Source: a virus (lineage: Duplodnaviria > Heunggongvirae > Uroviricota > Caudoviricetes). From it: DNA of 64,000 nt. The notes beneath the pieces were generated by a model that was not told the origin of the DNA, ran no database searches, and saw nothing but the letters and a program-made list of their open reading frames with translations. Made by a program: the position numbers and the translations under genes. Where the stretch lies: IMG/VR virus record IMGVR_UViG_3300044712_000123. One strand, 5' to 3'. Of this stretch, positions 42,992 through 59,873 are shown in pieces (within the stretch, counting starts at the first letter, position 1; each line of letters opens with the position of its first letter).

Positions 42992-43819
42992 TTAAGGTAA
43001 CTTTAATAGTTCTTCAATACTATACAAGTTCTTCATATAGGGTGACACATCTTCTAGCACTGAGCTAGGTAAGTCACCCTTTCTTCTTGGGCCGTACACC
43101 ACATCAAAGTCAATATCGTTGACTTTCTGAAATACATTAACGATCTCTCGTACTGTGTGTCCCACACCATGCCCTAAACATTCAATTTTATTAGCTGGTT
43201 TCTCAATTGCCAATTTGAGTGCTTCACATACTTCGTTAACGTGAACATAGTCACGTACACAAGTACCATCAGGTGATACATCATAATCATTCCCGTATAT
43301 AGTGAACTGGTTTGTATCAGTTGCCTCAAACAATTTGTACATCAACCCATCAGGATTAGTAGGAGCGAATCCATCGCAACCAATCACATTGTAGAATCGA
43401 AAGATTGAATAGTCTTGTTTGTTCCTAAGAGTGCAGTACTCACGTATAACATCTTCTGCCGCGCGCTTACTAGTACCGTAAACGCTCTGACAATACTCAG
43501 CAGTACCGGTGCTAGCAAAAATGAAATTCTTCGTTTTGACACGATTTAGAATGTTCATCGTACCATTCAGATTAGTGATGTAATATTGAATAGGCATATG
43601 CTCACTCTCACCTACACGAACGAGAGCCGCTAAATGAATCACTGCATCATACTCGCTTTCAGGTTCAAACAGTCGATTGATATCTTGCTTGTAGAACCTA
43701 TCAACAGGTGCTTTAGGCATGTTTACATCAAGCCCGTGAATCTCATATTGGCCTTCTAACATCTTGCACAAATGACTGCCGATGTAACCTGAACTACCTG
43801 TGATTAGTATTTTCTTCAT
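42992..43819 (-). CDS. NAD-dependent sugar-nucleotide epimerase/dehydratase (extended SDR)
   Basis: Rossmann motif TGSSGYIGSHL and catalytic YGTSK (YxxxK). Confidence 0.7.
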   Translation of the reverse strand: MKKILITGSSGYIGSHLCKMLEGQYEIHGLDVNMPKAPVDRFYKQDINRLFEPESEYDAVIHLAALVRVGESEHMPIQYYITNLNGTMNILNRVKTKNFIFASTGTAEYCQSVYGTSKRAAEDVIREYCTLRNKQDYSIFRFYNVIGCDGFAPTNPDGLMYKLFEATDTNQFTIYGNDYDVSPDGTCVRDYVHVNEVCEALKLAIEKPANKIECLGHGVGHTVREIVNVFQKVNDIDFDVVYGPRRKGDLPSSVLEDVSPYMKNLYSIEELLKLP

Positions 43820-45162
43820 GCGAATGTAAACAGGTCTGAGCCCGTTGCTTCCTCTAATGGTTCAAATGATGGATCTTTTGACAAGTATGTGTCGTTGTCT
43901 GTATAGATAACTCTGTACTTATGTTTATTAGTAAGTGCAGACCTTGCGTCATCAATGCAAATTAGTTTACGACCTAGACCCTCAATATACTCACTGTACT
44001 TAACCGTAGTGTTCTCTAAAATCTTAGCAGTGTTACTATTAGATTGCTTGGGAACAAACTCAGTGAAACAATCATTCCACTTGCCGAATACACGCTTTTC
44101 CATAAAGTTAGCATGTTCTAATGAACCTAAGTTATACCAAGTTTCTGCTTTCTCAAACGACCCATAGAGTTCCTGTGCCCTTTGAGCCATGTTCTTTTTA
44201 TTACAATAGTAAAAGAATTCATCATTGAAGTTTTTAGTCCAACGTTGGTTCTCTAACACAAGAGTAGGTAATTGAATATGCTGTTCATAGAAAGCCATAC
44301 CATATGATTCAACGATACTCGGATTGAAGGCGATACGTGCCGAGGTCATGAATTCTACTTTCTCTTTTCCTATGATACCAACCTTAATTTCATAAGGTAC
44401 ACCTATCTTTTTTAATCGTTCTTCAAACTTCTTAGCACCGTTTGCACTAGTCATCACTTTCGCAGGGAATCGTGTTTGCTCGATTAAGTCTAAGAACAGT
44501 TCTGGATTCTTTCCTTCTTCCCAACGACCTACGAACAACACACCTTCACGAGGTTTATGATGTTCTTGTAAAAGATCAGGTTCACTGATAGGGATAGGAA
44601 GATGCCATGCACCTTTGTCTTCTAGTTCTAGCGAGTTAAACTTACTCTGTGTACCCAGCCATAGACCATCACACTCAAGTTGTCTACGCATCATATCATT
44701 AGTTGTATTCAAGAACGGGTTCTTAGTATCTTTGAAAATCTGACTTTCCAAATGAGTGTACGCAATTACTTGAATACAGTCTTCAAGACCCATAGTACTA
44801 GCGACCTGAACAGTTTCGTATGTGTTGCAAATAAGTGCATCATACAAGTTATGTTCCAGTGCTTCTACGATTGCATTTCTAAAGTTAGCCATACGCTCAT
44901 AGCAGAATGTATCACCGTACATAAAGATGCCACTATGTGTAGTGTACGGTAAAGACTCTTTAGGACTGATAATGTTAGCCTTTAAGGACTTAACAAAGTC
45001 GTTGTCTTTAGGTTCTTTATCAGTGATGATATCGACTTTGATATTATGACTATCCATCAGTTCACAAAAACTCTTAGCAAACTGACCAATACCACCATGA
45101 GGGATAAGAGTTTGGTAGCTTACTAAGAAGCCGATGCGTTTGTCGTATATTCTCATTACCAA
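43816..45162 (-). CDS. GT-B (GT4-like) glycosyltransferase
   Basis: C-terminal ESYGMAFYEQ (E-x7-E) and a FVGRWEEGKNPELFLDLIE donor-binding region. Confidence 0.55.
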   Translation of the reverse strand: MVMRIYDKRIGFLVSYQTLIPHGGIGQFAKSFCELMDSHNIKVDIITDKEPKDNDFVKSLKANIISPKESLPYTTHSGIFMYGDTFCYERMANFRNAIVEALEHNLYDALICNTYETVQVASTMGLEDCIQVIAYTHLESQIFKDTKNPFLNTTNDMMRRQLECDGLWLGTQSKFNSLELEDKGAWHLPIPISEPDLLQEHHKPREGVLFVGRWEEGKNPELFLDLIEQTRFPAKVMTSANGAKKFEERLKKIGVPYEIKVGIIGKEKVEFMTSARIAFNPSIVESYGMAFYEQHIQLPTLVLENQRWTKNFNDEFFYYCNKKNMAQRAQELYGSFEKAETWYNLGSLEHANFMEKRVFGKWNDCFTEFVPKQSNSNTAKILENTTVKYSEYIEGLGRKLICIDDARSALTNKHKYRVIYTDNDTYLSKDPSFEPLEEATGSDLFTFA

Positions 45163-45344
45163 CTTTCAACGTCAGTGATGTCCATCTTGATAGATTGCTT
45201 TGGATCGAACTCAATAGTAGTGACTGCACCAATACCCCCACCCTTGCTTGAATCTTCTGTAATGATTACCCGATCTAAATCATACATCTCAAATACTTCT
45301 TTTAGTTTCTCAAACTGCTTTCTTGTTATTACAACTTGTCTCAT
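45156..45344 (-). CDS. hypothetical protein
   Basis: ORF; its start sits in the conserved coupling block. Confidence 0.3.
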   Translation of the reverse strand: MRQVVITRKQFEKLKEVFEMYDLDRVIITEDSSKGGGIGAVTTIEFDPKQSIKMDITDVESW

Positions 45345-45550
45345 TCTTCAACTCCGAAATGTTCTTTAATTCTTCTACTGACAAATGCATTAGGGTCATT
45401 AAACCCTGCAACATCAGCGCATTCTTTTACGATCAACTCAGCAAACTTTTCTAAGCTGAATACATGGGTATGTAATCCAGTTTGTCCCGGCATATGAACC
45501 ATCGACTGTTCTGCGATGTTTTCAAATACTTCACGCATCATGTTCCCCAT
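45341..45550 (-). CDS. EHFGVEE-family small protein (copy 3)
   Basis: LEKFAELIVKECADVA...IKEHFGVEE. Confidence 0.5.
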   Translation of the reverse strand: MGNMMREVFENIAEQSMVHMPGQTGLHTHVFSLEKFAELIVKECADVAGFNDPNAFVSRRIKEHFGVEE

Positions 45551-46380
45551 TCGTTTTTGAACAAAGGCACTTGCAATCTATCTGAATATCGCCAGCCACG
45601 TTTACATGCTTCGTCTGCTACTCTACGTGCGTTCATAGTGTAGATTGATTCAACACCACCGCAAGGCATCAAGTAAACAGGACCTCTGAATCCATGCGCT
45701 CTGTATGCCGCTACTGCTTTGTCTGCTTCTAATGCATCTTCTTCTGTGGCAACAACAAACTTCAAGTAAACAAAGCCCACTTCTTGATATTGATTGATTA
45801 CTGGTGGACAGATTGCTTCTTCCCACTTCTCACCACTGATTGACAACTTAGGACTAACTGAGAACGTGATTGCATTCTTCTCACGATTCATCTTCCACTG
45901 ATGCAAATATGTCTTTAGATCAATAGACAACATCTGTGTACCATTAGTTTCGAACGTCAACTCCTTCAGTTGTTTCATTCTTTCGTGCGAAAGTAAGTCA
46001 GGATACGCTCTTTGCCATCCGAGCAACGGTTCACCGCCCGTGATAACCAAGTGCTCATCCATCCAACGCTTGTGAGGAAGTAAATCACACATACTGTCAG
46101 CAAGAGAATCGGTACTGAGCACAGGACTAAGATGTTTGAAACGAGGGTCCCAAGATGCATAACTATCACAGCCCGTGCTGACAAGCGGTAAGGATTTATA
46201 CTCTGTAAAACTCTCTGCATCAATTTTGTCTCTCTCAACACTCAATTCTCCCTTAGGCATACCGAAGCCGCCGCATGTAAAGTTGCACCCATATGTTCTG
46301 AGAAAGATACTAGGGACTCCCATGTATCTACCCTCACCTTGAATGCTATAAAATAACTCTGAAATTTTTAGTTGACTCAT
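45538..46380 (-). CDS. queE: 7-carboxy-7-deazaguanine synthase (radical SAM)
   Basis: LFYSIQGEGRYMGVPSIFLRTYGCNFTCGG matches the QueE N-terminus; VITGGEP and ETNGT are present. Confidence 0.8.
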   Translation of the reverse strand: MSQLKISELFYSIQGEGRYMGVPSIFLRTYGCNFTCGGFGMPKGELSVERDKIDAESFTEYKSLPLVSTGCDSYASWDPRFKHLSPVLSTDSLADSMCDLLPHKRWMDEHLVITGGEPLLGWQRAYPDLLSHERMKQLKELTFETNGTQMLSIDLKTYLHQWKMNREKNAITFSVSPKLSISGEKWEEAICPPVINQYQEVGFVYLKFVVATEEDALEADKAVAAYRAHGFRGPVYLMPCGGVESIYTMNARRVADEACKRGWRYSDRLQVPLFKNEWGT

Positions 46381-47555
46381 ATTAAATCTGCTACCGTTTT
46401 AGAAGTGAATGGACTCAATGTCCAGCCAAGATGTCCGTGTCCTGTATTATAGTATACTTTAGGATTCTTGTCACTCTGTTTGGTAATAGGCATCATGTCA
46501 GGTGTCATTGGACGCAAACATGCCCATTGTGAGTAGTCGCTTGTATTGATATTGGGAAAGTTTGTATGTACCCATTTTAGTAGAGGTTCAATTCTGTCTC
46601 TAGTGATATCATAGTTCTCACCTGTCAACTCAGCAGTACCGGCAACACGGAATCTATTACCCAATGAACTAGTAACTATCTTAGCCTGATCGTCAAGCAA
46701 ACTGACCTTAGGCAAGTACTTAGGATCAACGTTGTTGATAGTGATTGAATATCCTTTGACTGGATATACATCAATAGTGTCACCAACTTGCTTTGCTAGT
46801 TCTGCGCTACCAACTCCAGCAGCAACTACAACTGCATCAAACAGTTCAGTCAATGCGTTCATGCCATACTTTTCAGTGACAGTTGACTCGTACTTGAACT
46901 CTACATTATACTTATTAGCCAATACTAATGATAGTTGCTGGCAGAATTTGTGAATGTCACCGGTGCTATCACTTGGGGTGAATGTTCCACCGATCACTCC
47001 ATTGATATCTTGCAATGCAGGATCTAGAAATTTAACTTGCATTGGTGTCAACAAGTCCCACTCACACCCGTTTTCGTTGTAAATCTCTTTGACTTGTTTA
47101 GCATTATCCCAATACTGTTCATCTTTGTAAAAGTGAACAATGCCTGCCTTCAAGTGGTCGTAGCAAATGCCTTCTTCTTCGACAAGTTGGTCATACAACT
47201 TACGTGCTTCAACTCCTGCACGAATTGTCCATGCTGTATTTCGCTTATATGCACCTGTCGCAGTGTGATACAAGAACTTTAGAATCCACTTCCACTGTTT
47301 GTAATCTAACCTGGGACGAATGAGTAGTGGCGCGTCTTTAGTAAAAAGCCACTTAGTAGCTTTCTTGACGTTACTCCATGTAGTCCATACTTCGCTGTTG
47401 CTTACTGATACTTGTCCGCCATTAGCAAAGCTAGTCTTCATTGCTGAGTAGCGTTCTTGTTCGTAGACAACTACTTTATAACCTTTTTTTGCGAGGTAGT
47501 ATGCAGTTGTTAGTCCTGCGATACCTGCCCCGATTACTGCTACTGTTTTTGACAT
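46377..47555 (-). CDS. FAD-dependent amine oxidase/dehydrogenase (DadA/DAO family)
   Basis: Dinucleotide fold VAVIGAGIAGLTTAYYL; ETSFANGGQV, LRPMTPD and NTGHGHLGWT match DadA. Confidence 0.75.
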   Translation of the reverse strand: MSKTVAVIGAGIAGLTTAYYLAKKGYKVVVYEQERYSAMKTSFANGGQVSVSNSEVWTTWSNVKKATKWLFTKDAPLLIRPRLDYKQWKWILKFLYHTATGAYKRNTAWTIRAGVEARKLYDQLVEEEGICYDHLKAGIVHFYKDEQYWDNAKQVKEIYNENGCEWDLLTPMQVKFLDPALQDINGVIGGTFTPSDSTGDIHKFCQQLSLVLANKYNVEFKYESTVTEKYGMNALTELFDAVVVAAGVGSAELAKQVGDTIDVYPVKGYSITINNVDPKYLPKVSLLDDQAKIVTSSLGNRFRVAGTAELTGENYDITRDRIEPLLKWVHTNFPNINTSDYSQWACLRPMTPDMMPITKQSDKNPKVYYNTGHGHLGWTLSPFTSKTVADLI

Positions 47556-47770
47556 TAATATCCTAATCGTTCTTTTCTTTGTTCTTCTGTTTCGTCACGT
47601 TGTAAGTGAATGAAGATGCATCCTTCCACACCGCAACCGCAAACAATGTGATATTCTCTAACGATACGCTCTGCGGCTTTAACTTCGCCGCGCTTGAGCA
47701 AACTGTTGACAATCTCACGTTCATGCTTGGCAGCACTTAGGTCTTTAGGTGAAAGGAAGCGACCGCTCAT
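47555..47770 (-). CDS. hypothetical small Cys-rich protein
   Basis: ORF with a CGCGVEGC cluster. Confidence 0.3.
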   Translation of the reverse strand: MSGRFLSPKDLSAAKHEREIVNSLLKRGEVKAAERIVREYHIVCGCGVEGCIFIHLQRDETEEQRKERLGY

Positions 47771-48270
47771 GCAAGTAAATCCTCATTCCATTCACGATGA
47801 CCTTCACGGAAAGCCATGTTGCTCTGTGTCTCACGTACTTCAACACGATAGCACCACAATCTTTTTGCTTCACCTTCGCCCCACATGTCAGGGATGTAAA
47901 CACCATTAACATATTTGTAAAGCATATCTGCAAGACTTTCACACCCTAAGCGTGGAAGAATTGTTAGTTTAGCCATCTTCTTTTCTTGCAATAATTTGAA
48001 TGTTTCAAGTTCAGGGTCATCTTCTGCGACTAACAATGTGTGGTCGAATTGATCTTCAAGAATCTTCTTCAATTCTTTTAAGCCACCGTAGTCTGCTGCC
48101 CAATTGCGAACATCTAAGTCATCAGTACCAAAATAGAACTTCATACTGAAACTATATCCGTGAATTGTATTGCAGTGACTATCCGCGCGCCATTGACGAT
48201 AAGCGCAAGGGAATGAATCGTGGTACTCTTTAGTACTTGTGTATTTGTAACTTACTAGTTGATTTGCCAT
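47767..48270 (-). CDS. queD: 6-carboxytetrahydropterin synthase-like protein (QueD/PTPS family, variant zinc motif)
   Basis: CNTIHGYSF aligns to the QueD CxxxHGH motif with the last His replaced by Tyr; T-fold length. Confidence 0.55.
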   Translation of the reverse strand: MANQLVSYKYTSTKEYHDSFPCAYRQWRADSHCNTIHGYSFSMKFYFGTDDLDVRNWAADYGGLKELKKILEDQFDHTLLVAEDDPELETFKLLQEKKMAKLTILPRLGCESLADMLYKYVNGVYIPDMWGEGEAKRLWCYRVEVRETQSNMAFREGHREWNEDLLA

Positions 48271-48346
48271 TGTTTTCTCCTATGTTAATTATAGCATAGG
48301 CAGCAGAGTTTGTATAGCGGGATGACGCCGAGACCGCTATCTTTAT

Positions 48347-48553
48347 TTACCTTTTTATACCCCATGCAATTTTATTCCAAATTCGCTCATGAATAAAATA
48401 TAGAATGGTGTTAAAAGTTAACTGAATTAGTGCGATTGTTCCGGAAACAGACACATTTCCTAATATCATATATGATATCAAGAACGTAGCAAGACTGCCA
48501 GTTATTCTCCAACTGACAGTCTTTACTAAGCTACGCTTAGTTGTTTCACTCAA
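48347..48553 (-). CDS. small membrane protein
   Basis: Two hydrophobic helices. Confidence 0.3.
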   Translation of the reverse strand: MSETTKRSLVKTVSWRITGSLATFLISYMILGNVSVSGTIALIQLTFNTILYFIHERIWNKIAWGIKR

Positions 48554-49337
48554 GCCCTAACCCTCTTCGGATTTTTGTAGCACTGATACTATGGGTAGCA
48601 TCATCAAATGTTTCTTGTTCGATTTTGTATCCTACATCACGTCCATATGTAATGTTCACGATGTTTGGTACAATCTGAATCTCGTATTGACCTTGATAAA
48701 GCATATCCAAATCACGCTTGATAAAGTTCTTTACTTGTTCAATGGCAAATGGATTTGAACCATTCCAGCCCTGACAGTCACGAATCTGGATAACAACTTG
48801 ACCAGTCTTAGCAACTGCACGTTCAAACAATTTACGATGACCTTCATGCCAAGGTTGCCAACGACCTAACATTTGTACTGTTTCTTTTTTCCAATCGAAT
48901 TCTGGGCGTCTGCGATCATCCAAGATATGTGCAGCAATAAACTCTCCCCATTTTTCACCATGTTGCTCAGTGATTCTAAAATCATAAACATCAGGTGCGA
49001 TGAATGCTTTGTTGGTATCTTCGTATCGACCCTTGTCAATAGTATCAACCCAAACAGTCCAATCTGCTTTAAAGTTGTTACGCATTTCTACTAGAGGTGC
49101 AACAAAGTCACAGATAACATAGTCCATGCCTGTCATACTATCTGCTAGTTCACGCATACGCAAACTTTGACGGATACGGCCTTCTTTACTGAAATCCCAA
49201 TCGTTATATTTCTTACGCACATCATCAGCGTTAAGCCAACCAACTTTCTTCTTTTCAGCTTGCAAGTGACCGAGTATATGTTGTGCTAGATATGTTTTGC
49301 CTGAGCCCGGAAGACCCATAATTAAAATTCGTTTCAT
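48546..49337 (-). CDS. bifunctional APS-kinase-like P-loop kinase / HxGH nucleotidyltransferase
   Basis: N-terminal GLPGSGKT plus LNADDVRKK...GRIRQSLRMRELA (APS-kinase-like); C-terminal WHEGH and ISATKIR (nucleotidyltransferase HxGH / ISSTxIR motifs). Confidence 0.55.
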   Translation of the reverse strand: MKRILIMGLPGSGKTYLAQHILGHLQAEKKKVGWLNADDVRKKYNDWDFSKEGRIRQSLRMRELADSMTGMDYVICDFVAPLVEMRNNFKADWTVWVDTIDKGRYEDTNKAFIAPDVYDFRITEQHGEKWGEFIAAHILDDRRRPEFDWKKETVQMLGRWQPWHEGHRKLFERAVAKTGQVVIQIRDCQGWNGSNPFAIEQVKNFIKRDLDMLYQGQYEIQIVPNIVNITYGRDVGYKIEQETFDDATHSISATKIRRGLGLE

Positions 49338-49639
49338 TTGTATAACTCCAATAACATTTTGTATTTACTATATGCTTCTGCAACTGCCGGGTGTGTTCTA
49401 CGTAGATATGCCTCTTCGCGCTGGTCTTGCCATTCCTTTTCACTTGCGTTGTCCATCTTGACCAAATCTTCAAACCCACTACGTGTGAGTTCCATTTCAA
49501 TTAATTCTTCGCGGTCAGCGTAATAACTAGCAGTTTGGTTATAACTACCGTAGTTGATAGTTGCATAATTTCGATCACGACTTACTTGTACATGTTTGAC
49601 ACGGTATTTACTAATGAATGAATCGTAAAAATTACTCAT
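49334..49639 (-). CDS. hypothetical protein
   Basis: ORF on the track. Confidence 0.35.
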   Translation of the reverse strand: MSNFYDSFISKYRVKHVQVSRDRNYATINYGSYNQTASYYADREELIEMELTRSGFEDLVKMDNASEKEWQDQREEAYLRRTHPAVAEAYSKYKMLLELYK

Positions 49640-50389: not shown

Positions 50390-50488
50390 AGTTACGTCCT
50401 TGGTTACAGTTGCCAGTGCAATCGCTTTTTGGTAATCTACGAACGATTGATACAGCTACTGCGATTACGATTAGAATGATTAATAAGT

Positions 50489-50969: not shown

Positions 50970-51650
50970 TTATTTGCTACCTTTGTTTGCGATTTGCAAG
51001 AACTCTGCACGTGCCGCTGGATCAGTTTTGAAACCGCCACCTAAGCGACAAGTAACTGTACTTGAACCTGTATCTTCTACACCACGTGATTTTACGCAAT
51101 AGTGTTGTGCGTCAATCATAACTGCAACGTCTTCTGTATCAAGGATGAACTGTAGTGTGTGAAAGATTTGTTCAGTCAATCGTTCTTGAATCTGTGGTCT
51201 CTTAGAGAAGTATTCCACAATTCGATTAATCTTGGACAATCCGAGAACCTTCTGCTTAGGAACATATGCCACAGTAGCGAGGCCGTCAATAACGACAAAG
51301 TGATGTTCACAGTTACTCTGGACGTTAACGTTACGTTCCACGACCATTTCATTATACTGCATCTTATTGTCAACGGTGGTACATTTTGGAAACGCTTCAT
51401 AATCTAGACCCCAAAAGATTTCATTGACATACATCTTAGCAACACGCTTTGGTGTTTCGATAAGACTGTCATCGAATAGATCAAGTCCCATTGTTTCCAT
51501 GATCTTTTGAAAATGACTTTCAATGATATCAATCTTTTCTTTGCGGTCTAGAGTGTTTGCTTTTGTGGGTGTCTCGACTCCCATCTTAACTAGATGTTCG
51601 TGAACTTGTTGACCCAATGCTGGATCTGTTTTTGTTTTATTGTAACTCAT
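50970..51650 (-). CDS. folE: GTP cyclohydrolase I
   Basis: ETPKRVAKMYVNEIF, CEHHFV, LGLSKINRIV, RPQIQERLT and HYCVKSRG are identical or near-identical to E. coli FolE blocks. Confidence 0.95.
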   Translation of the reverse strand: MSYNKTKTDPALGQQVHEHLVKMGVETPTKANTLDRKEKIDIIESHFQKIMETMGLDLFDDSLIETPKRVAKMYVNEIFWGLDYEAFPKCTTVDNKMQYNEMVVERNVNVQSNCEHHFVVIDGLATVAYVPKQKVLGLSKINRIVEYFSKRPQIQERLTEQIFHTLQFILDTEDVAVMIDAQHYCVKSRGVEDTGSSTVTCRLGGGFKTDPAARAEFLQIANKGSK

Positions 51651-51709
51651 GATAACCTTCCTTTGTGATGGTTTTATTTTGACATTGTGCTACCGTTGTG
51701 TAGCACAAG

Positions 51710-51718
51710 TATTTATCA
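51710..51718 (-). promoter_or_regulatory. TGATAAATA motif, candidate promoter element for folE
   Basis: Exact 9-mer, 59 nt upstream of the folE ATG; it overlaps the groES stop. Confidence 0.3.
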
Positions 51719-52009: not shown

Positions 52010-52011
52010 GA

Positions 52012-52206
52012 TTAAGCCTTAGCTTTTGCTTCTGCACGTGCGTTCTTAGTCTCGGTAATTTCATTACGGCGAGCCTTAACTGCTTTAGCAAGTTCTGCAA
52101 GTGCTTTACGGGCACGGGTGCCTGCGGCTGCATTGCCTGCTTCAAACTTTGCAGATTCAGCTTGGTATGCTGCCATTTGTGTTTCGATATCTTGATGTGC
52201 GCTCAT
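52012..52206 (-). CDS. small Ala-rich helical protein
   Basis: ORF on the track. Confidence 0.3.
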   Translation of the reverse strand: MSAHQDIETQMAAYQAESAKFEAGNAAAGTRARKALAELAKAVKARRNEITETKNARAEAKAKA

Positions 52207-52472
52207 TTTTTCTCCTTTGATTTACGCTTTGGTTTCATCGTAGCAACCATAGATTCTATTGTTGCATCGGATAGTTTGCGTTTTGCCTTTGCCGGGGTGA
52301 TTTCCTCAGCACTAGCAATCGCTAGTCTTACTTCATTCAGTAATGCTTCGTCATCCCATTGTAACACTGTTCGACCATCTTCGAAAGTCGTTACGGTCAA
52401 ATGAGTTCCTTGTTGTATCTTAGGCCATCCACCTGAAGGGACGTTCTCTAATTTTTGTTTACGTGTTGCCAT
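52203..52472 (-). CDS. hypothetical protein
   Basis: ORF on the track. Confidence 0.3.
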   Translation of the reverse strand: MATRKQKLENVPSGGWPKIQQGTHLTVTTFEDGRTVLQWDDEALLNEVRLAIASAEEITPAKAKRKLSDATIESMVATMKPKRKSKEKK

Positions 52473-52968
52473 TATTTTCTCCTTCTACTGGTCTATCAAA
52501 AGGCCACTTGGCAGGTGTTTCTAAAATTGTTTTAGCATCAGATTCAGATACAGCTTCCTCCTCTGGTTCACCTGTACGAATGATTTGTTCTTCATCGCCG
52601 TCAACTCGTTCGATGATTAGATCACAATCAATAATCATTTCACAGTCACCTTGAATCCAACCATGTTCTTCTAAGTCAAGCCAAGAATTTTCTTCTAAAA
52701 ATTCTTCTAGCCATTCTTCTAGTTCTTCGTCATCGATAGTAACTTCTTCCCAGCAACCGTCGAATGTTTCAACAAGTTCTGTTTCGTAGTCACAATCATA
52801 CATGTCTACACCTGCTTCAATGTCAGGAGGATTGTCATCATCGGTATAAACAGTAAACTCACCACCACGCCAGCCTGTTTCAGCTACAATCGTTTTACCG
52901 TCTTTGTAAAGATAGTTGCGTTCGATGATTGATTTCTTCCACGCGGGTGTTACTTTCCACTCAGCCAT
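52459..52968 (-). CDS. highly acidic hypothetical protein
   Basis: ORF; Asp/Glu-rich. Confidence 0.35.
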   Translation of the reverse strand: MAEWKVTPAWKKSIIERNYLYKDGKTIVAETGWRGGEFTVYTDDDNPPDIEAGVDMYDCDYETELVETFDGCWEEVTIDDEELEEWLEEFLEENSWLDLEEHGWIQGDCEMIIDCDLIIERVDGDEEQIIRTGEPEEEAVSESDAKTILETPAKWPFDRPVEGENNGNT

Positions 52969-52969
52969 A

Positions 52970-54157
52970 TTAGTATTTCCCTTCTCTAGTATATTTTCGG
53001 TAATCAGTAGTCATACGAGACCATTGTTCACCTTTGCCTTCTAAGATATCAACGATACGGTCAATAGTACCATTGTTCCAATCACTGATCTGACCTATCT
53101 TAGGGTTTGGATCTGATAAGCTACAATACAATTTTTCCATTGCGTCATGTATTGACCAAGGGATGTATAGTCGTTCAGAATCATTGCTAAATGTTTCAGG
53201 GAAACTACGATAAGCAGGATAAAGCACATTACAGCCAAGCGCATCTGCCTCCGAGACAGTGTTTGAGACCCAGTCTTGTAAAGCGCAGTTGAACACCACG
53301 CGAGAGTTATTAACAATATTATAGTAATCATTCTTTTCTAAGTCCTCATATACTGTTAGTAGACCACGTGCTTGCAAGTCACGAGTGCGTTGCATGTAGC
53401 TGTCGTTATTTGATTTTAGTTTTCCACCTGAGCAGACACAGAACTCTACGCCATTGTCAGGAAGTTCTTCGTGCCAACGTTCGATAAGGTCCATGTAGAA
53501 GTCAGGTTGCTTCTCTTGATCCCAACGAGCACTGAAGACAACACGAGGCTTACGTTCATAGAACGGAATGATTTCACCTACTCGACTTTGAACTTCGCTC
53601 TTACCGAATGCTAGACCACTGATATTGTAGATTGGGGCTTCCCAACCTGCAATCTTCATGTGCATGACCATTTCTTCATTAGTCGCAAGGATCGCACCGC
53701 CACTGTCACGTACAGCCTCACACACCATTTTCTCGTAACTGCCCATCCACTTCGACATTCCCCAGACATGGACAAAATCGTCAGGATCGATAGACTGCGC
53801 GAGACACCTAACAAATATCTTTGGGCGATGTGTTTCACTAACTTGATTAAGAATATAAGGCAGACTCTCAAAGCCCGGTTGAAACATGTCTTCAAAATAG
53901 ATAACATCTTCACTAGTAACTTCTCCTGCCTTCATCATCTTAACTAGATTCATCAATTGACTCATACCAAAGTATGAACGACCGTGTGCATCTAATACTT
54001 GACCAGTTACAATAGCTTGGTCATTACTCAATGTCTCACCGGGCACGATTACATAATCAATGCCACGTTGCTTAAACACGGCTTCATTCCAGTCTTGTAA
54101 CTGCAATGTGTATCGTGCTTTGTAGGGTTCGAGACCCATGTAATATAGTTTTCTCAT
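52970..54157 (-). CDS. GT-B glycosyltransferase (T4 a-gt/b-gt-like architecture)
   Basis: C-terminal Rossmann half KPRVVFSARWDQEKQPDFYMDLIERW resembles the donor-binding region of GT-B enzymes; about 395 aa, like the T4 DNA glucosyltransferases. Confidence 0.45.
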   Translation of the reverse strand: MRKLYYMGLEPYKARYTLQLQDWNEAVFKQRGIDYVIVPGETLSNDQAIVTGQVLDAHGRSYFGMSQLMNLVKMMKAGEVTSEDVIYFEDMFQPGFESLPYILNQVSETHRPKIFVRCLAQSIDPDDFVHVWGMSKWMGSYEKMVCEAVRDSGGAILATNEEMVMHMKIAGWEAPIYNISGLAFGKSEVQSRVGEIIPFYERKPRVVFSARWDQEKQPDFYMDLIERWHEELPDNGVEFCVCSGGKLKSNNDSYMQRTRDLQARGLLTVYEDLEKNDYYNIVNNSRVVFNCALQDWVSNTVSEADALGCNVLYPAYRSFPETFSNDSERLYIPWSIHDAMEKLYCSLSDPNPKIGQISDWNNGTIDRIVDILEGKGEQWSRMTTDYRKYTREGKY

Positions 54158-54889
54158 TTATTCTCCGTATGTTTCGTTGATTAACCTAAGTGCAATATCA
54201 TATTCAGTTTGAGTAATCGCTTCATTAGATGATATTCTCCAATAACTTTTTACTGCTTCTACGTCAGTTCCTAATGTTAGCATAGCTTTTTCGTTGTGTT
54301 TCTGTAGATCAAACCATTTATTATGAATGAGATTTGCAGACTCATACTGGTTACTGATATCAAAGAAATCAACTATGGTGCTATAGATGTCTATATCTAA
54401 CTCTCTATTAGTATACAATTTATCAATGTTCAACGTAAGTATATCATTTGATATGGCGCTTTGCAACTTGTTACGGTCATTGTCGTTGGATATGGCTATC
54501 CTATATGATCTTTTTATGTCGTCTAATGTTATTGTTTGGTCTAATGTAGCTTGCTTCACTAAGCCATTCAATGCAGGGTTAAATTTCAAATAGTGCTTAT
54601 AACTGAGGTCTGGATTGGGTACTAGTACTAAAACTTTCTTAGGAGTTCCAATTGTCATACATGCATCTATTGAGTGATTTACGGTCACTAACTTTTGTAT
54701 GTGAGGTAATTCTCGAAACAAATACTCGTGTGATAACCAGACAAACGATGATCTGCGTTCAGGGTAAACAATGTTTGAAATGAAATGCATTTTTTCAGAG
54801 ATACCCCACTTAAACTCAGGAGATAGTAATATTAACCATCTAACATGATTCATCAGGCCTCCGCAAGGAGCGCATATCACCCTATTCAT
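54158..54889 (-). CDS. hypothetical protein
   Basis: ORF on the track. Confidence 0.35.
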   Translation of the reverse strand: MNRVICAPCGGLMNHVRWLILLSPEFKWGISEKMHFISNIVYPERRSSFVWLSHEYLFRELPHIQKLVTVNHSIDACMTIGTPKKVLVLVPNPDLSYKHYLKFNPALNGLVKQATLDQTITLDDIKRSYRIAISNDNDRNKLQSAISNDILTLNIDKLYTNRELDIDIYSTIVDFFDISNQYESANLIHNKWFDLQKHNEKAMLTLGTDVEAVKSYWRISSNEAITQTEYDIALRLINETYGE

Positions 54890-55638
54890 TTTCGTTCGAT
54901 ATCTTCCTCAACACACAATTCACCATACTGAATCTCTACTATTCTACATGGTTCGTTGTATGGATTACTTAGCTGATGCCAATCACCTACAGGAATTTTA
55001 TATGAGTTATGTGCTGTCAATGTTTGAGTTGGTAGTTGATATCCGTTTTCCATCATAGATAGAACATCACACTTGCCTTCACTAACTAACCAATATTCAT
55101 TGCGTTTAAAATGCTTTTGCATACTTAGTGTCTTTCCAGGTTCTACTGTTAGTTCTTTGACCTTGCATCCAGGTACATCATGTAGAATACGATAGTAGCC
55201 CCATTGACGTTCAGTTTTAGGGTTCTTCCATTCACGTAGAATCCAAGAACTACTATTCATCTTGTTCTCGCCACCGACACCAAATACAAACTGTACATCA
55301 TCAAAGACCATTTCAGGAATGTTCTCTGCTGTTCTATCTCCACCGTTAGCAAAGATAATCTCTGCATCTGGGAATATAGTTTTTACTTTTTGAATGGCAT
55401 CTTTGCTTGAATTGTCATCATCTTTGAATTCAATGGTACTGTCTACCACTGCTAAATGGCCAACAATAGCTCTGCGTTCTTCAAGAGGCATGAAAGGCTG
55501 ACCTTTCTTACGGGTCAGCCATGCGTCACTGTTCAACCCAACGATTAGTTTATCGCCGAGTTGTTTAGCAGCCTTGAAGTATTCAATGTGACCACTGTGT
55601 AGAGGGTCGAAACCTCCAGTGACTAGTACAATCTTCAT
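54886..55638 (-). CDS. sugar-phosphate nucleotidyltransferase (HldE domain II / TagD family) fused to a C-terminal cupin (phosphomannose-isomerase-like)
   Basis: VTGGFDPLHSGHIEYFKAAKQLGDKLIVGLNSD matches RfaE/HldE domain II; the C-terminal about 120 aa have a cupin pattern (QKHFKRNEYWLVSEGKCDV...HQLSNP). Start set at the internal MKIVLV, which overlaps the upstream stop. Confidence 0.6.
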   Translation of the reverse strand: MKIVLVTGGFDPLHSGHIEYFKAAKQLGDKLIVGLNSDAWLTRKKGQPFMPLEERRAIVGHLAVVDSTIEFKDDDNSSKDAIQKVKTIFPDAEIIFANGGDRTAENIPEMVFDDVQFVFGVGGENKMNSSSWILREWKNPKTERQWGYYRILHDVPGCKVKELTVEPGKTLSMQKHFKRNEYWLVSEGKCDVLSMMENGYQLPTQTLTAHNSYKIPVGDWHQLSNPYNEPCRIVEIQYGELCVEEDIERK

Positions 55639-55841
55639 CGAACGATTGCTTCCGCCCAGCCATCTTTTGCCCACTTACCGGCGAGTTGTTTCTGATGTTG
55701 ACGATACACAAAATTGCGCATGTCATACAATGTAGACTCATCGAACTTATATCCGAAGTCTACACAGAATTCACGATACTTGTCCAAGTCATCGAAAATT
55801 TGACGGACACGTGGGTTAGGTTGGAAGTTATGTTTTGCCAT
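55635..55841 (-). CDS. hypothetical protein
   Basis: ORF on the track. Confidence 0.3.
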   Translation of the reverse strand: MAKHNFQPNPRVRQIFDDLDKYREFCVDFGYKFDESTLYDMRNFVYRQHQKQLAGKWAKDGWAEAIVR

Positions 55842-55853
55842 TTTAATATTTCC

Positions 55854-56309
55854 TTAAATAGCGAGTTGTTGTAAAGGTTGAGTTGTGTTGTAGTGAATCG
55901 TAGCACCATTCTCGTTGTCTTCTGAGACAGTGATAATGATGTTACGATCTGGATATCGAGTTGCAATGACTTCATAGAGGTCATCACTAATCATTTCACA
56001 ACTCTTGTAATCCAATGCAAGAATGCCTTGAGAATATTGATTCTCTAACCATCGCTTGAATTGAATAAACTCGATATCACGGTCGTTGTGAAACACTTCA
56101 ATCGTCACTTCAAAGTGAAAGATGTGACGATGTGGAGTTGCTAGAAAGCTAACATCATATTCATCACCTGTTGCGAGTGCTGGATCTGTTGCTGCCGCTG
56201 GGTATTTATGAATACCTTCTTTTTGAAAACGCACAAAAATTGTACGAATTGCTTTATCTTTGATGCGCTGACGCTTTTCGGTCATTGCTTGTTCTCGTTG
56301 TTCAATCAT
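55854..56309 (-). CDS. hypothetical protein
   Basis: ORF on the track. Confidence 0.35.
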   Translation of the reverse strand: MIEQREQAMTEKRQRIKDKAIRTIFVRFQKEGIHKYPAAATDPALATGDEYDVSFLATPHRHIFHFEVTIEVFHNDRDIEFIQFKRWLENQYSQGILALDYKSCEMISDDLYEVIATRYPDRNIIITVSEDNENGATIHYNTTQPLQQLAI

Positions 56310-56518
56310 CGGTCGTCATCCAAATCTACTGTTTCATGGTCATGATCCCATTGTGCTCGAATCATGTGTTTAAGTTCAGTATTGTATTTTACACTAGCTT
56401 CACGTAGTTTAGCAAGAGCCTTCGGGTCTGCATTACCCGATTTTTCTAATTTAAAGATTTGATCCTCTACTAATCTATATGATTCTTGTAGTATATTAAT
56501 TCTATTTTTATAGGGCAT
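56306..56518 (-). CDS. hypothetical protein
   Basis: ORF on the track. Confidence 0.3.
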   Translation of the reverse strand: MPYKNRINILQESYRLVEDQIFKLEKSGNADPKALAKLREASVKYNTELKHMIRAQWDHDHETVDLDDDR

Positions 56519-56519
56519 T

Positions 56520-58076
56520 TCAATCTCCTAGTACTTCGTTCATTGCATCATCACTGTCTTCGATAATTTCATCAACTTCGGGTTCAGATTCAGCAACATC
56601 AAATAGCTTGTCAAACATGGTCAATGAATTCATTGTCTTCTTACCACTAAAACCTTGACTACCTGATGAGAACTGCATCCAAAGTCTAGAGTTAGCATCA
56701 ATCAAGTCGATAGCTTCCTGTTTAGTTTTCTTACTGAATACTTCATCGATAATGTCTTTAAACAGTATACGCTCAAAGGTCTCATTCATCAACATCTTCG
56801 GGATAACACCTTGGTCATATTTACGATTGGCTTCTTGAACTGCGTTCATGTGCATCCAAACATTATGACTTTGAACCAAAGTATAGCTTAAAGTATCCCA
56901 ACTTGTCTTTGTTTCTTTACCATGTTGTCCGATAAAGCCTTGACCGCGGTAGCAAAGGTCCTTGACAGTCATGATATCAGTTACTGGGCTATCTGTCCAA
57001 ACTTTGTGAACTTTATCCTGTAACACTGCGTCACTATACTTTCGGTTATCACTTGCGTAGGATTTCTTCTCCGCAGTCTTTTCCATTTGATATGACCATT
57101 TACCATTATGCTCAATAGTCGTATTGTAGTAAGCCAAACCCTTAGCAGCACTAAAGAATGGGCTAGCACAATCGAATGTGATTTGCAGTTTTGGATTGTG
57201 ATACTTGCGAATAGCACGTTGGATATCGCTAAACAACACAGCATACTCTAAGATACTTGTACCCAAACAGTGAATCAAGTCATGCTTACCTTCTTGCAAC
57301 AACCCATCATAGATGATATCAATCATACGGGTTAGCATCAAGTGAACGTCAATCTTGTTTTGACCCCCGAATGCCCAACCGTTAAAGTGATTATCTGGAT
57401 AGACGTTTGGATCGCAATACTTTTTCATCTCAGCGTACCAATCAGCAGATTGATCGTGGTTACGACCTTGAAGTACGTTTAAGAACTTACACTTGCCGTT
57501 ACGATGTTTGATGAAATACTCATTGTTAATATGAGTAGCACTGATAGCTTCTTCGATGGTACTGATACCGTGAGCACTTGTGCCTGTCTTCGGGTCTTTG
57601 ATATGAAAAGTAGTCAATGATTGTGATGGGATATCAAGACACATACCATAGTCCATGTATGTATCCATCCAAGTCAAAACTTGTTGACGCTTTTTCATAG
57701 CACGTGGACAGTTAGGATCTTTCCAGTCAGCAGGCCATTGTGCCTTTAAAATCTGAAAACCACCTGAGTCACCCAACATGAAAGTACCTTCTTCACGTTT
57801 GCGAATGATACTTTCTTTATGGTCGTCAACTGTAGTATCCAAGTTAGCGTGACCAGCAGAGTACAGGCCCCACTTATAAGTATAGATACCTTCTTTACTA
57901 TTTAGGAAGTTTAGTTTCTCAACATCGCCATTGAAACTAGGAGGAATACGTTGAGGCTCAAAGTATACTTCACCCTCACGTTGTTTCCCCAAGCCAGCAA
58001 TGTAGAATGAACTCACTGCTGGTAAGAACAATGCCCAGTCTGGTTGTTGCTTTGCTGATAAATTATCTTGTTGCAT
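56520..58076 (-). CDS. dpdA: DpdA-like 7-deazaguanine DNA transglycosylase (TGT superfamily)
   Basis: FMLGDSGGFQILKAQW matches the TGT/DpdA DSGGFQ active-site motif; the TIM-barrel-sized N-terminal part is followed by about 200 extra C-terminal residues. Confidence 0.55.
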   Translation of the reverse strand: MQQDNLSAKQQPDWALFLPAVSSFYIAGLGKQREGEVYFEPQRIPPSFNGDVEKLNFLNSKEGIYTYKWGLYSAGHANLDTTVDDHKESIIRKREEGTFMLGDSGGFQILKAQWPADWKDPNCPRAMKKRQQVLTWMDTYMDYGMCLDIPSQSLTTFHIKDPKTGTSAHGISTIEEAISATHINNEYFIKHRNGKCKFLNVLQGRNHDQSADWYAEMKKYCDPNVYPDNHFNGWAFGGQNKIDVHLMLTRMIDIIYDGLLQEGKHDLIHCLGTSILEYAVLFSDIQRAIRKYHNPKLQITFDCASPFFSAAKGLAYYNTTIEHNGKWSYQMEKTAEKKSYASDNRKYSDAVLQDKVHKVWTDSPVTDIMTVKDLCYRGQGFIGQHGKETKTSWDTLSYTLVQSHNVWMHMNAVQEANRKYDQGVIPKMLMNETFERILFKDIIDEVFSKKTKQEAIDLIDANSRLWMQFSSGSQGFSGKKTMNSLTMFDKLFDVAESEPEVDEIIEDSDDAMNEVLGD

Positions 58077-59866: not shown

Positions 59867-59873
59867 CACCGGT

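What the first reader, a model, noticed from the sequence alone, without database searches (positions are those of the whole stretch)
42992..58076. 15-kb DNA-hypermodification supercluster combining 7-deazaguanine genes with sugar-nucleotide and glycosyltransferase genes
Every gene in this block is on the minus strand.
- 7-deazaguanine branch: a DpdA-like transglycosylase (DSGGFQ), FolE, a QueD-like PTPS, QueE and a DadA-like FAD amine oxidase.
- Sugar branch: two GT-B glycosyltransferases, two TagD/HldE-domain-II nucleotidyltransferases (one fused to a cupin), an APS-kinase-like/nucleotidyltransferase fusion and an SDR epimerase.

DpdA with FolE, QueD and QueE is the known route to 7-deazaguanine bases in phage DNA. 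The accompanying sugar-activation and glycosyl-transfer machinery is what T4-like phages use to glycosylate modified bases, and the two sets have not been described together. No QueC is visible here, so the inserted base may be a CDG derivative or something further tailored by the oxidase. A glycosylated or otherwise decorated 7-deazaguanine is plausible.
Basis: partly seen in the sequence, partly recalled or inferred. Interest (0 to 1): 0.85.

Follow-up and report, generated by a model that had tools for sequence, protein, structure and literature searches.

The report
Deazaguanine DNA-modification cluster with glycosyltransferases
A giant uncultured phage carries the known gene set for replacing guanine in its DNA with 7-deazaguanine, and a sugar-transferring enzyme sits in the same cluster in about 160 related viral contigs and seven groups of cultured phages, so the modified base may also carry a sugar, which has not been reported.

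Summary
All genes from 42992 to 62582 are on the minus strand, and the domain calls hold.

- **DSGGFQ protein (518 aa):** it has no Pfam, PHROG or PDB sequence hit. Its AlphaFold model matches only tRNA-guanine transglycosylases, and its profile matches the ACP17/X1 phage DpdA.
the 151-aa gene at 55854-56309 is 55% identical to ACP17 DpdL and carries the motif LATPHRHIF. This explains the missing QueC. It places the cluster in the phiST-type FolE/QueD/QueE/DpdL/DpdA route to 7-deazaguanine (dDG).
- **New point:** the 395-aa GT4-like glycosyltransferase is a core member of such clusters.
  - All 18 full-length homologs among 50,697 phage records are in DpdL phages (PA5oct group, ACP17, X1/BUDD, BCSR5, BUCT-ZZ01, Phosso).
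  - DpdL lies nearby in 75/80 close and 70/80 distant viral loci.
- **Lineage-specific genes:** the nucleotidyltransferases, the epimerase and the second transferase are add-ons of this phage lineage, but 38 of 39 complete loci carry at least one of them.
- **Not core:** the FAD oxidase is rare (4/39) and GroES is unrelated.

No tool can show that DNA is the sugar acceptor. A glycosylated 7-deazaguanine is plausible but unproven. I rate this a new variant of a known kind.

The parts
56520..58076 (-). DpdA-like DNA guanine transglycosylase candidate (518 aa, DSGGFQ). TGT fold; long subfamily not covered by Pfam.
   Evidence: AF2 model pLDDT 88.6. Foldseek PDB top 10 are all tRNA-guanine transglycosylases, E 4e-7 to 4e-4. 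BFVD hits include phage TGT/DpdA-annotated proteins. hhalign against ACP17/X1/BUCT DpdA: probability 97.4%, E 1e-11. Invariant D103, S104, G106, D148, P150, H269, G272, D302. Present in 39/39 complete related loci.
56306..56518 (-). Small ORF (70 aa), unknown, variable.
   Evidence: Present in 12/80 related loci. No family hit.
55854..56309 (-). DpdL (151 aa): QueD-paralog T-fold protein, proposed in the literature to decarboxylate CDG to 7-deazaguanine.
   Evidence: 55% identity to ACP17 DpdL and 34% to phiST DpdL. Motif LATPHRHIF matches LxxxHRHxF of PMC10516641. phrog_17812 5.5e-32. Present in 39/39 complete loci.
55635..55841 (-). Conserved small ORF (68 aa, pI 8.8) between DpdL and the glycosyltransferase; function unknown.
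   Evidence: Present in 70/80 related loci in the same position. No family hit.
54886..55674 (-). Nucleotidyltransferase (HldE-domain-II/TagD-like, HxGH) fused to a type II mannose-6-P-isomerase-like cupin. Probable sugar-phosphate isomerase / NDP-sugar synthase. Accessory gene.
   Evidence: Pfam CTP_transf_like 5e-14 and MannoseP_isomer 2e-20. NCBIfam rfaE_dom_II 4e-22. Present in 20/39 complete loci, always together with the 157-aa nucleotidyltransferase. Another gene caller starts it at 55638.
54158..54889 (-). ORF of 243 aa, unknown, specific to this phage.
   Evidence: No Pfam, PHROG, NCBIfam or PDB hit. Absent from all 80 related loci.
52970..54157 (-). GT4-like (GT-B fold) glycosyltransferase, 395 aa. 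Core member of DpdL-type clusters.
52012..52968 (-). Three small unknown ORFs (169, 89 and 64 aa), variably present.
   Evidence: Present in 21, 28 and 17 of 80 loci. No family hits.
50970..51650 (-). FolE, GTP cyclohydrolase I.
   Evidence: Pfam 2e-61. 62% identity to ACP17 FolE. Present in 35/39 complete loci.
49636..50109 (-). Nucleotidyltransferase, 157 aa, HldE-domain-II/TagD-like. Accessory gene.
   Evidence: phrog_7878 4e-30. NCBIfam rfaE_dom_II 3e-22. Present in 24/39 complete loci.
48546..49337 (-). Fusion of an APS-kinase-like P-loop kinase with an NMNAT-like nucleotidyltransferase. Role uncertain. Accessory gene.
   Evidence: Pfam APS_kinase 1e-10. PDB 2yvu 3e-6 for the N-terminal part and 2qjt 1e-4 for the C-terminal part. 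phrog_10255 8e-50. Present in 9/39 complete loci.
47767..48270 (-). QueD-like 6-carboxytetrahydropterin synthase (PTPS family).
   Evidence: Pfam PTPS 3e-17. 53% identity to ACP17 QueD. Shares the C..HGY variant motif with the phiST, ACP17 and BUCT QueDs.
46377..47555 (-). DadA-like FAD-dependent oxidoreductase. Rare accessory gene; role unknown.
   Evidence: Pfam DAO 3e-60. NCBIfam D-amino-acid dehydrogenase 454 bits against a cutoff of 494. Present in 4/39 complete loci, always between QueD and QueE.
45538..46380 (-). QueE, radical-SAM 7-carboxy-7-deazaguanine synthase.
   Evidence: phrog_2076 4e-52. NCBIfam QueE models 1e-9 to 1e-13, below cutoffs. 48% identity to BUCT-ZZ01 QueE.
43816..45162 (-). 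Second probable GT4-like glycosyltransferase (448 aa). Accessory gene.
   Evidence: Pfam Glycos_transf_1 3.6e-4, below threshold. GRWEEGKNP and E-x7-E (VESYGMAFYEQ) motifs on reading. 38% identical homolog inside the BUCT-ZZ01 cluster next to FolE. Present in 22/39 complete loci, 20 of them with the window-type SDR.
42992..43819 (-). Short GalE-like NDP-sugar epimerase/dehydratase (SDR, GxxGxxG and YxxxK present).
   Evidence: Pfam Epimerase 5e-30. NCBIfam galE 3e-48, below cutoff. An SDR of this or a full-length type is present in 36/39 complete loci.

Best explanation
This is a DpdL-type 7-deazaguanine DNA-modification cluster of an uncultured jumbo phage, extended by a glycosylation module.

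**Steps inferred from family assignments.**
- FolE, QueD and QueE convert GTP to 7-carboxy-7-deazaguanine (CDG).
- With no QueC present, DpdL takes CDG towards 7-deazaguanine, as proposed for phage phiST.
- The 518-aa TGT-fold protein, a DpdA-like enzyme encoded just downstream of the polymerase and clamp genes, exchanges guanine in phage DNA for the deazapurine.

**Step supported by comparative genomics.** The 395-aa GT4-like glycosyltransferase belongs to this pathway.

**Steps that are inference only.**
- The glycosyltransferase transfers a sugar from an NDP-sugar onto the deazaguanine. This could happen on DNA, or on the free base before a queuine-like insertion.
- In this lineage the donor sugar is tailored by phage enzymes: an SDR epimerase/dehydratase and two HldE-II-like nucleotidyltransferases, one fused to an isomerase-like cupin.
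- A second glycosyltransferase may extend or diversify the sugar.
- The expected benefit is protection from restriction and other DNA-targeting defences.

**Confidence by sub-claim.**
- Deazaguanine DNA modification: about 0.85.
- Glycosyltransferase is part of that pathway: about 0.7.
- Final DNA base carries a sugar: about 0.4.
For: - **Pathway enzymes:** family assignments.
- **DpdL:** identified, using the motif and phiST data from PMC10516641.
- **DpdA-like protein:** TGT fold and profile link, with the catalytic-type motifs DSGGFQ, LDIP, VLQG, HCLG and FDCASP invariant or nearly so.
- **Homolog in PA5oct:** it lies between the polymerase and QueE. PA5oct DNA resists restriction enzymes whose sites contain G (PMC12191111).
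- **GT linkage in cultured phages:** all 18 full-length GT-family matches in 50,697 phage records are in the 28 DpdL-positive records. The GT is immediately adjacent to DpdL in ACP17, PA5oct, BUCT-ZZ01 and Phosso.
- **GT linkage in viral contigs:** 75/80 close loci and 70/80 diverse loci carry DpdL near the GT.
- **GT properties:** GT-B/GT4 fold with conserved donor-site residues.
- **Sugar genes inside the cluster:** an SDR is present in 36/39 complete loci of this lineage, and at least one sugar-nucleotide or second-GT gene in 38/39. These genes occur as co-varying modules.
- **Consistent with a missing component:** ACP17 DpdA plus DpdL alone gave no dDG in E. coli (PMC10516641).
Against: - phiST makes plain dDG at 100% replacement without any glycosyltransferase.
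- dDG offers no hydroxyl acceptor, whereas GT4 enzymes normally glycosylate hydroxyl groups.
- Sugar-nucleotide genes are nearly absent from the wider GT/DpdL family: SDR 3/80 and nucleotidyltransferases 0/80. Those phages would need host donors.
- About half of the cultured DpdL phage groups show no detectable GT.
- DpdL's decarboxylase activity is itself unproven.
- No nucleoside data exist for any GT-bearing phage.
- QueC absence is shown only for 64 kb of a roughly 360-kb genome.
Confidence: 0.5

Rival explanations
1. The DNA carries plain 7-deazaguanine (dDG) only. The glycosyltransferases and sugar-nucleotide genes act on something else, such as host envelope polysaccharide, virion proteins or another cellular target. 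They sit here because this is the early/middle gene region where auxiliary genes accumulate.
For: - phiST reaches 100% dDG without a GT.
- The nucleotidyltransferase domains are closest to cyanophage HldE-like auxiliary genes that lie in LPS-type gene clusters.
- The accessory genes are mosaic.
- GroES and unknown ORFs are interspersed in the block.
Against: - The GT family is restricted to DpdL phages in the cultured collection.
- It is adjacent to or near DpdL in seven unrelated lineages and in about 145 of 160 viral contigs.
- A surface-directed enzyme would not be expected to track DpdL across hosts as different as Pseudomonas, Sinorhizobium, Synechococcus, Xanthomonas and Burkholderia.
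Confidence: 0.2
2. The glycosyltransferase works on a small-molecule intermediate, a pterin or a free deazapurine, rather than on DNA. It might act like cyanobacterial UDP-glucose:tetrahydrobiopterin glucosyltransferase, or make a transient glycosylated carrier needed for DpdL or DpdA chemistry. The final DNA base would not be glycosylated.
For: - The cluster starts from the same GTP cyclohydrolase I / PTPS chemistry.
- ACP17 DpdA plus DpdL alone failed to give dDG in E. coli, so another enzyme may be required for dDG itself.
Against: - phiST lacks the GT yet makes dDG.
- No sepiapterin-reductase-like gene is present to make a biopterin-type acceptor.
Confidence: 0.15
3. The modified base enters DNA before or during replication as a nucleotide. 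The free deazapurine would be converted to a nucleotide and incorporated by the phage polymerase. The TGT-fold protein and the GT would then serve nucleotide-level steps.
For: - Replacement is complete in phiST-type phages.
- An XGPRT-like phosphoribosyltransferase sits in 16/80 diverse clusters, in 7/80 loci of the close set, and in BUCT-ZZ01.
- The cluster lies directly next to the polymerase and clamp genes.
Against: - No phosphoribosyltransferase, dGTPase/MazG or nucleotide kinase is found in this window's cluster.
- The phosphoribosyltransferase is equally well explained as salvage of the guanine released by base exchange.
- Every characterised TGT-family enzyme exchanges bases in polynucleotides (PMC10516641 and established knowledge).
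Confidence: 0.1

Closest known systems
phiST-type 7-deazaguanine (dDG) system: FolE, QueD, QueE, DpdL, DpdA3 (Cui et al. 2023, PMC10516641)
   Same: - Same precursor enzymes, including the same variant QueD.
- A DpdL homolog with the LxxxHRHxF motif.
- No QueC.
- A TGT-superfamily transglycosylase.
- The cluster lies next to replication genes.
   Different: - The transglycosylase is a distinct long family (518 aa). It is related to the ACP17/X1 type (hhalign 97%) but not significantly to phiST DpdA3 (probability 55%).
- phiST has no glycosyltransferase and no sugar-nucleotide genes.
- phiST has a MazG-like gene that is absent here.
- The final base is unknown here.
DpdL clusters of cultured phages ACP17, PA5oct group, X1/BUDD, BCSR5, BUCT-ZZ01 and Phosso
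   Same: - Same DpdA-like, GT and DpdL core together with FolE, QueD and QueE.
- BUCT-ZZ01 also shares the second GT.
- Phosso has the closest DNA polymerase (49%).
   Different: - These phages lack the nucleotidyltransferases, the cupin fusion, the kinase fusion, the SDR and the DAO.
- Several carry an XGPRT-like or a PAPS-reductase-like gene instead.
- In their records these genes are annotated as hypothetical. A few carry a bare 'glycosyltransferase' or 'queuine tRNA-ribosyltransferase' label.
- No paper in the searched library links the GT to the modification.
T4 glucosylation of 5-hydroxymethylcytosine (alpha- and beta-glucosyltransferase), and virus-encoded glycosyltransferases acting on 5hmC (bioRxiv 10.1101/2023.12.21.572611)
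   Different: - The acceptor there is a hydroxymethyl pyrimidine; no hydroxymethylase is present here.
- T4 uses host UDP-glucose.
- No specific sequence relationship was found.
Glycosylated queuosine in animal tRNA (mannosyl- and galactosyl-queuosine; own knowledge, not checked here)
   Same: A sugar is attached by a glycosyltransferase to a 7-deazaguanine derivative that sits in a nucleic acid.
   Different: - The nucleic acid there is tRNA, not DNA.
- The acceptor is the cyclopentenediol hydroxyl of queuosine, which this pathway cannot make because QueC, QueF, QueA and QueG are absent.
- No homology was tested.
Bacterial Dpd restriction-modification system (DpdA/DpdB/DpdC; PMC10164549)
   Same: A TGT-family enzyme inserts a 7-deazaguanine into DNA.
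   Different: - That system inserts preQ0 and converts it to dADG.
- It needs the DpdB ATPase and a QueC-derived precursor.
- It has no glycosyltransferase.

Membership tests
TGT / DpdA superfamily (518-aa protein) | TIM-barrel fold of tRNA-guanine transglycosylases | tested here: met
   AF2 pLDDT 88.6. The ten best Foldseek PDB hits are all TGTs, probability 1.0, though TM-scores are only 0.3-0.5. BFVD hits include phage TGT/DpdA entries.
TGT / DpdA superfamily (518-aa protein) | Catalytic aspartates in DSGG(F/Y)Q and FDC-type motifs, plus substrate-binding D and Q motifs | tested here: met
   D103, S104, G106, D148, P150, H269, G272 and D302 are invariant in 48 diverse homologs. These motifs align with those of the ACP17/X1 DpdA. 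Equivalence to TGT Asp102/Asp156/Asp280 was read from the motifs, not from a superposition.
TGT / DpdA superfamily (518-aa protein) | Match to Pfam TGT (PF01702) | tested here: not met
   No Pfam hit at E 0.01. The ACP17, X1, BUCT and phiST DpdAs give no hit either, so this test has low power.
TGT / DpdA superfamily (518-aa protein) | Zinc site CxCxxC...H | tested here: inconclusive
   No such motif and no invariant Cys in the alignment. Whether phage DpdAs of this type need zinc is unknown.
TGT / DpdA superfamily (518-aa protein) | Exchange of guanine in DNA for a 7-deazaguanine | not testable with these tools
   Only context is available: linkage to QueE, DpdL and FolE in all complete loci, and restriction resistance of PA5oct DNA.
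DpdA3 subfamily (phiST/CP220 type) | Detectable homology to phiST CGPG_00065 | tested here: not met
   BLASTP E 1.0. hhalign probability 55% over 81 columns. The protein is filed as DpdA-like with the subfamily unassigned.
DpdL (151-aa protein) | Homology to phiST/ACP17 DpdL, with LxxxHRHxF replacing the CxxxHGH of QueD | tested here: met
   tblastn 7e-39 to ACP17 and 9e-5 to phiST. LATPHRHIF aligns with the motif.
DpdL (151-aa protein) | CDG decarboxylase activity | not testable with these tools
   This activity is only proposed in the literature, and heterologous tests failed.
phiST-type dDG pathway | FolE, QueD and QueE present; QueC absent | tested here: inconclusive
   All three enzymes are present. 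No QueC is found in the window or in 80 related loci.
GT-B / GT4 glycosyltransferases (395-aa protein) | Two-Rossmann-domain GT-B fold | tested here: met
GT-B / GT4 glycosyltransferases (395-aa protein) | Pfam Glycos_transf_1 above the gathering score | tested here: not met
   The window protein scores 16-19 bits against a cutoff of 25-27. Homologs from X1 and more than 100 metagenome relatives pass.
GT-B / GT4 glycosyltransferases (395-aa protein) | Conserved donor-binding Arg/Lys and Glu of the C-terminal domain | tested here: met
   R211, K216, P218, E303 and E321 are invariant across window, X1, ACP17, PA5oct and Phosso types.
DNA base glycosyltransferases (T4 AGT/BGT-like function) | Acts on a modified base in DNA | not testable with these tools
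   T4 AGT is one of many similar-scoring folds. The isoelectric point is uninformative.
T4-type hmC glucosylation system | Pyrimidine hydroxymethylase that supplies the hydroxyl acceptor | tested here: not met
   No thymidylate-synthase-like or hydroxymethylase domain among the cluster or window ORFs scanned.

The most novel reading that the evidence does not exclude
Phages of this lineage, and probably PA5oct, ACP17, X1, BUCT-ZZ01 and Phosso, replace guanine with a sugar-bearing 7-deazaguanine. That would be the first glycosylated purine in DNA. The sugar would be attached by a dedicated GT4-family enzyme. The glycan would vary between related phages through swappable phage-encoded NDP-sugar modules and a second glycosyltransferase.
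Probability: 0.35. Interest if true: 0.9.

Novelty: new variant of a known kind. Interest (0 to 1): 0.7.

Why it matters
7-Deazaguanine DNA modifications are a major way for phages to escape restriction. So far, all eight described derivatives carry only small substituents at position 7.

- **A missing pathway component.** A glycosyltransferase that travels with DpdL, DpdA and QueE across many phage lineages would add one. It may also explain why DpdA plus DpdL alone failed in heterologous tests.
- **Abundance.** The protein families involved are very common in metagenomes. More than 6,000 clusters at 90% identity were found for the transglycosylase and about 8,000 for the glycosyltransferase.
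- **Practical relevance.** The families occur in therapeutic-candidate phages such as PA5oct and Paride. Their DNA chemistry affects sequencing, restriction, CRISPR targeting and recognition by modification-dependent defences.
- **Testability.** Several cultured phages carry the core module, so the question can be tested directly.

Tried and rejected
- **Megablast of the 15-kb block against phage genomes:** no match.
- **Sequence searches for the 518-aa protein:** Pfam, PHROG and PDB sequence or profile searches found nothing. Structure and hhalign were needed.
- **Link to phiST DpdA3:** BLASTP and hhalign were not significant, so no subfamily is assigned.
- **Isoelectric points as a proxy for DNA binding:** uninformative, because the GT, the DpdA-like protein and T4 AGT are all acidic.
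- **Structure job that included locus-derived sequences:** It was redone with permitted homologs.
- **Literature search on the bare term 'DpdL':** returned mostly unrelated acronyms. Searches for glycosylated deazaguanine found nothing relevant.
- **Supplementary tables of Cui et al. 2023:** not held. I could not check which DpdA subfamily they assign to ACP17 or PA5oct.
- **Oxidase tailoring the base:** considered and set aside, because the DAO gene is in only 4/39 complete loci.
- **GroES as part of the system:** set aside (2/80 loci).
- **The 154-aa ORF at 49632-50096:** set aside. It is an alternative frame over the real 157-aa nucleotidyltransferase gene and has no hits.

Full report
**Source and layout.**
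- The window comes from an uncultured jumbo phage. Identical proteins occur on a 360-kb contig.
- Its family-B DNA polymerase (59874-62582) is closest to Sinorhizobium phage Phosso (49%), followed by Atu_ph07 and the RaK2-like phages.
- The 15-kb block has no nucleotide-level relative among 50,697 phage records.
- From 42992 to 62582, every credible gene is on the minus strand, in a tight and often overlapping chain. Plus-strand ORFs are short and nested.

**Check of the gene inventory.** Pfam, PHROG and NCBIfam scans confirm these assignments:
- GalE-like SDR (42992-43819)
- QueE (45538-46380)
- DadA-like FAD oxidoreductase (46377-47555)
- PTPS/QueD (47767-48270)
- APS-kinase-like plus NMNAT-like fusion (48546-49337)
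- HldE-domain-II-like nucleotidyltransferase (49636-50109)
- FolE (50970-51650)
- nucleotidyltransferase fused to a mannose-6-phosphate-isomerase-type cupin (54886-55674)

The two glycosyltransferase calls are weaker at sequence level. Both are below Pfam's threshold. GroES (51716-52009) and about ten unknown small ORFs are also in the block.

**The DSGGFQ protein.**
- The 518-aa protein (56520-58076) has no hit in Pfam, PHROGs or PDB sequences, even when searched as a 48-sequence profile.
- It belongs to a large family: 824 clusters at 50% identity and more than 6,000 at 90%.
- Cultured members are annotated as hypothetical. They occur in PA5oct-like Pseudomonas jumbo phages, Vibrio phage 2.275.O and Phosso.
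- An AlphaFold model (pLDDT 88.6) matches only tRNA-guanine transglycosylases at significant levels in the PDB (ten hits, E 4e-7 to 4e-4).
- Among viral models it matches phage proteins annotated as TGT or queuine tRNA-ribosyltransferase.
- The family profile aligns with the DpdA of ACP17, X1 and BUCT-ZZ01 at 97.4% probability. The alignment covers DSGG(F/L)Q, (L/F)D(E)IP, QG, H-LG and (F/Y)D(C/S), and these positions are invariant in the family.
- The protein is not significantly similar to phiST DpdA3, so I leave the subfamily open.

- The 151-aa gene at 55854-56309 is DpdL. It is 55% identical to ACP17 DpdL and 34% to phiST DpdL.
- It carries LATPHRHIF, which matches the LxxxHRHxF signature that Cui et al. 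2023 contrast with the CxxxHGH of QueD.
- In phiST, the set FolE, QueD, QueE, DpdL and DpdA3 without QueC goes with complete replacement of dG by 2'-deoxy-7-deazaguanine.
- No QueC-like sequence or PP-loop motif is present in the window or in 80 related loci.
- The deazaguanine branch is thus a member of a known kind. The missing QueC needs no special explanation.

- *Cultured phages.* Among 50,697 phage records, all 18 full-length matches are in DpdL-positive phages: Phosso, eleven PA5oct-group phages, ACP17, BUCT-ZZ01, X1, BUDD and BCSR5.
- *Position.* The gene abuts DpdL in ACP17, PA5oct, BUCT-ZZ01 and Phosso. It is one gene away in X1 and BUDD.
- *Close viral contigs.* In 80 contigs of the window's own lineage (72-84% identical GT), the order is Pol, clamp, o126, DpdA, DpdL, a 68-aa ORF, GT, FolE, QueD, QueE. 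This order is conserved.
- *Diverse viral contigs.* In a second set of 80 contigs (23-56% identical to the X1 GT), DpdL lies within 8 kb in 70. At least one of DpdL, DpdA or QueE is present in 75.
- *Literature.* The papers that define these pathways do not mention a glycosyltransferase, and no paper in the library describes a glycosylated deazaguanine.
- *Relevant experiments.* Cui et al. could not obtain dDG from ACP17 DpdA plus DpdL in E. coli and suggested that other enzymes may be required. PA5oct DNA is reported to resist restriction enzymes with G in their sites.

**The sugar-nucleotide genes.** These are not core genes of the wider family, where SDR is in 3/80 loci and nucleotidyltransferases in 0/80. 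In the window's lineage they are inserted inside the cluster as modules. Among 39 loci with enough flank:

| Gene | Loci (of 39) | Note |
|---|---|---|
| NDP-sugar epimerase/dehydratase (SDR) | 36 | |
| Any sugar-nucleotide or second-GT gene | 38 | |
| 448-aa GT | 22 | 20 with the window-type SDR |
| 157-aa nucleotidyltransferase | 24 | |
| Cupin fusion | 20 | always with the 157-aa nucleotidyltransferase |
| Kinase fusion | 9 | always with the 157-aa nucleotidyltransferase |
| DAO | 4 | |

- In relatives that lack the 448-aa GT, a full-length SDR follows the core GT directly. In L042 a DegT-type aminotransferase fragment also follows.
- This pattern fits a variable donor-sugar supply for the conserved transferase.
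- The kinase fusion is the weakest member. Its N-terminal half resembles APS kinase in its substrate motifs, and its C-terminal half resembles NMNAT. Its full-length phage homologs are in Sano-like siphophages next to a COG3236/GTP cyclohydrolase II gene.

**Mechanism.**
- *Assigned by family membership:* GTP is converted to H2NTP by FolE, then to CPH4 by QueD, then to CDG by QueE.
- *Inferred from the phiST precedent:* DpdL converts CDG to 7-deazaguanine.
- *Inferred from fold, motifs and context:* the TGT-fold protein exchanges the base into DNA.
- *Inferred from gene linkage only:* the GT4 enzyme adds a sugar, using NDP-sugars that this lineage tailors itself.
- *The weak point:* the acceptor is unknown. 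dDG lacks a hydroxyl group, so the sugar would have to go onto N2, O6, C7 or a carboxylate, or the GT would have to act before insertion.
- *Rivals:* the sugar genes serve a non-DNA target; the GT acts on a small-molecule intermediate (the tetrahydrobiopterin glucosyltransferase is a close fold match); or the base is incorporated at nucleotide level (XGPRT-like genes occur in some clusters, although these may simply salvage released guanine).

**Verdict.**
- The deazaguanine core is a known kind. The conserved glycosyltransferase and the lineage-specific sugar modules make this a new variant.
- Several cultured phages are available for a direct test.

Noticed in passing
window 59243-59809 (-); L011, L012, L029: A 2OG-Fe(II) oxygenase (Pfam 3e-13, phrog_61) lies between the clamp-like gene and the polymerase. 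In three related contigs a homolog sits inside the deazaguanine cluster: NTcupin-2OG-GT in two of them and DpdA-2OG-DpdL in the third. It could supply a hydroxyl acceptor, or it may be a generic auxiliary gene.
   Followed up: partly
window 48546-49337 (-): The kinase/nucleotidyltransferase fusion has APS-kinase-like substrate motifs (LNADDVR, DFVAPL) and an NMNAT-like HxGH domain. This layout recalls PAPS synthase or CoA synthase. Full-length homologs occur only in Sano/Salvo-like siphophages, next to a COG3236 (NADAR)/GTP cyclohydrolase II gene.
   Followed up: partly
L091-L170; L005 9093-9554; L006 7338-7871: In the diverse GT/DpdL clusters, an XGPRT-like phosphoribosyltransferase occurs in 16/80 loci and a PAPS-reductase-like ATP pyrophosphatase in 24/80. 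Neither is in the window. The first may salvage released guanine. The second might stand in for QueC.
   Followed up: partly
L089 6254-7405 (Vibrio phage Bakedbeans gp176): DpdL appears as the C-terminal part of a 383-aa protein with an N-terminal extension of about 250 aa and unknown function.
   Followed up: no
window 47767-48270 (-); L003, L004, L005 QueD genes: The phage QueD proteins of this group have C..HGY instead of CxxxHGH. They also lack the first zinc-ligand histidine of E. coli QueD. phiST, which demonstrably makes dDG, shares this variant.
   Followed up: partly
window 55635-55841 (-): A basic 68-aa ORF is conserved between DpdL and the glycosyltransferase in 70/80 related loci. 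It has no family hit and may be an unrecognised partner protein.
   Followed up: no
L087 5816-6349 (Phosso XYS97380); PV764938.1 323249-324691: In Phosso a 178-aa gene annotated 'glycosylase' precedes DpdL and the GT. The 518-type DpdA homolog lies about 170 kb away, so the DpdL-GT pair stays together even when DpdA is elsewhere.
   Followed up: no
window 9788-10378 (-), 15337-16542 (-): The phage encodes ClpP (Pfam 4e-81) and ClpX (AAA_2 1e-30 plus the ClpX zinc finger).
   Followed up: no
window 40007-40570 (+), 36566-37585 (-), 20714-22060 (-), 31553-32401 (-): Other genes in the window: Fe/Mn superoxide dismutase, UvdE UV endonuclease, ATP-dependent DNA ligase and an SPFH/Band 7 protein.
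   Followed up: no
window 51716-52009 (-): A GroES/Cpn10 co-chaperonin gene (3e-26) sits in the middle of the cluster. It is present in only 2/80 related loci and is not part of the system.
   Followed up: yes
window 49632-50096 (-): A 154-aa ORF in another frame overlaps the 157-aa nucleotidyltransferase gene almost completely. It has no hits and a low-complexity sequence, and is probably not a gene.
   Followed up: yes
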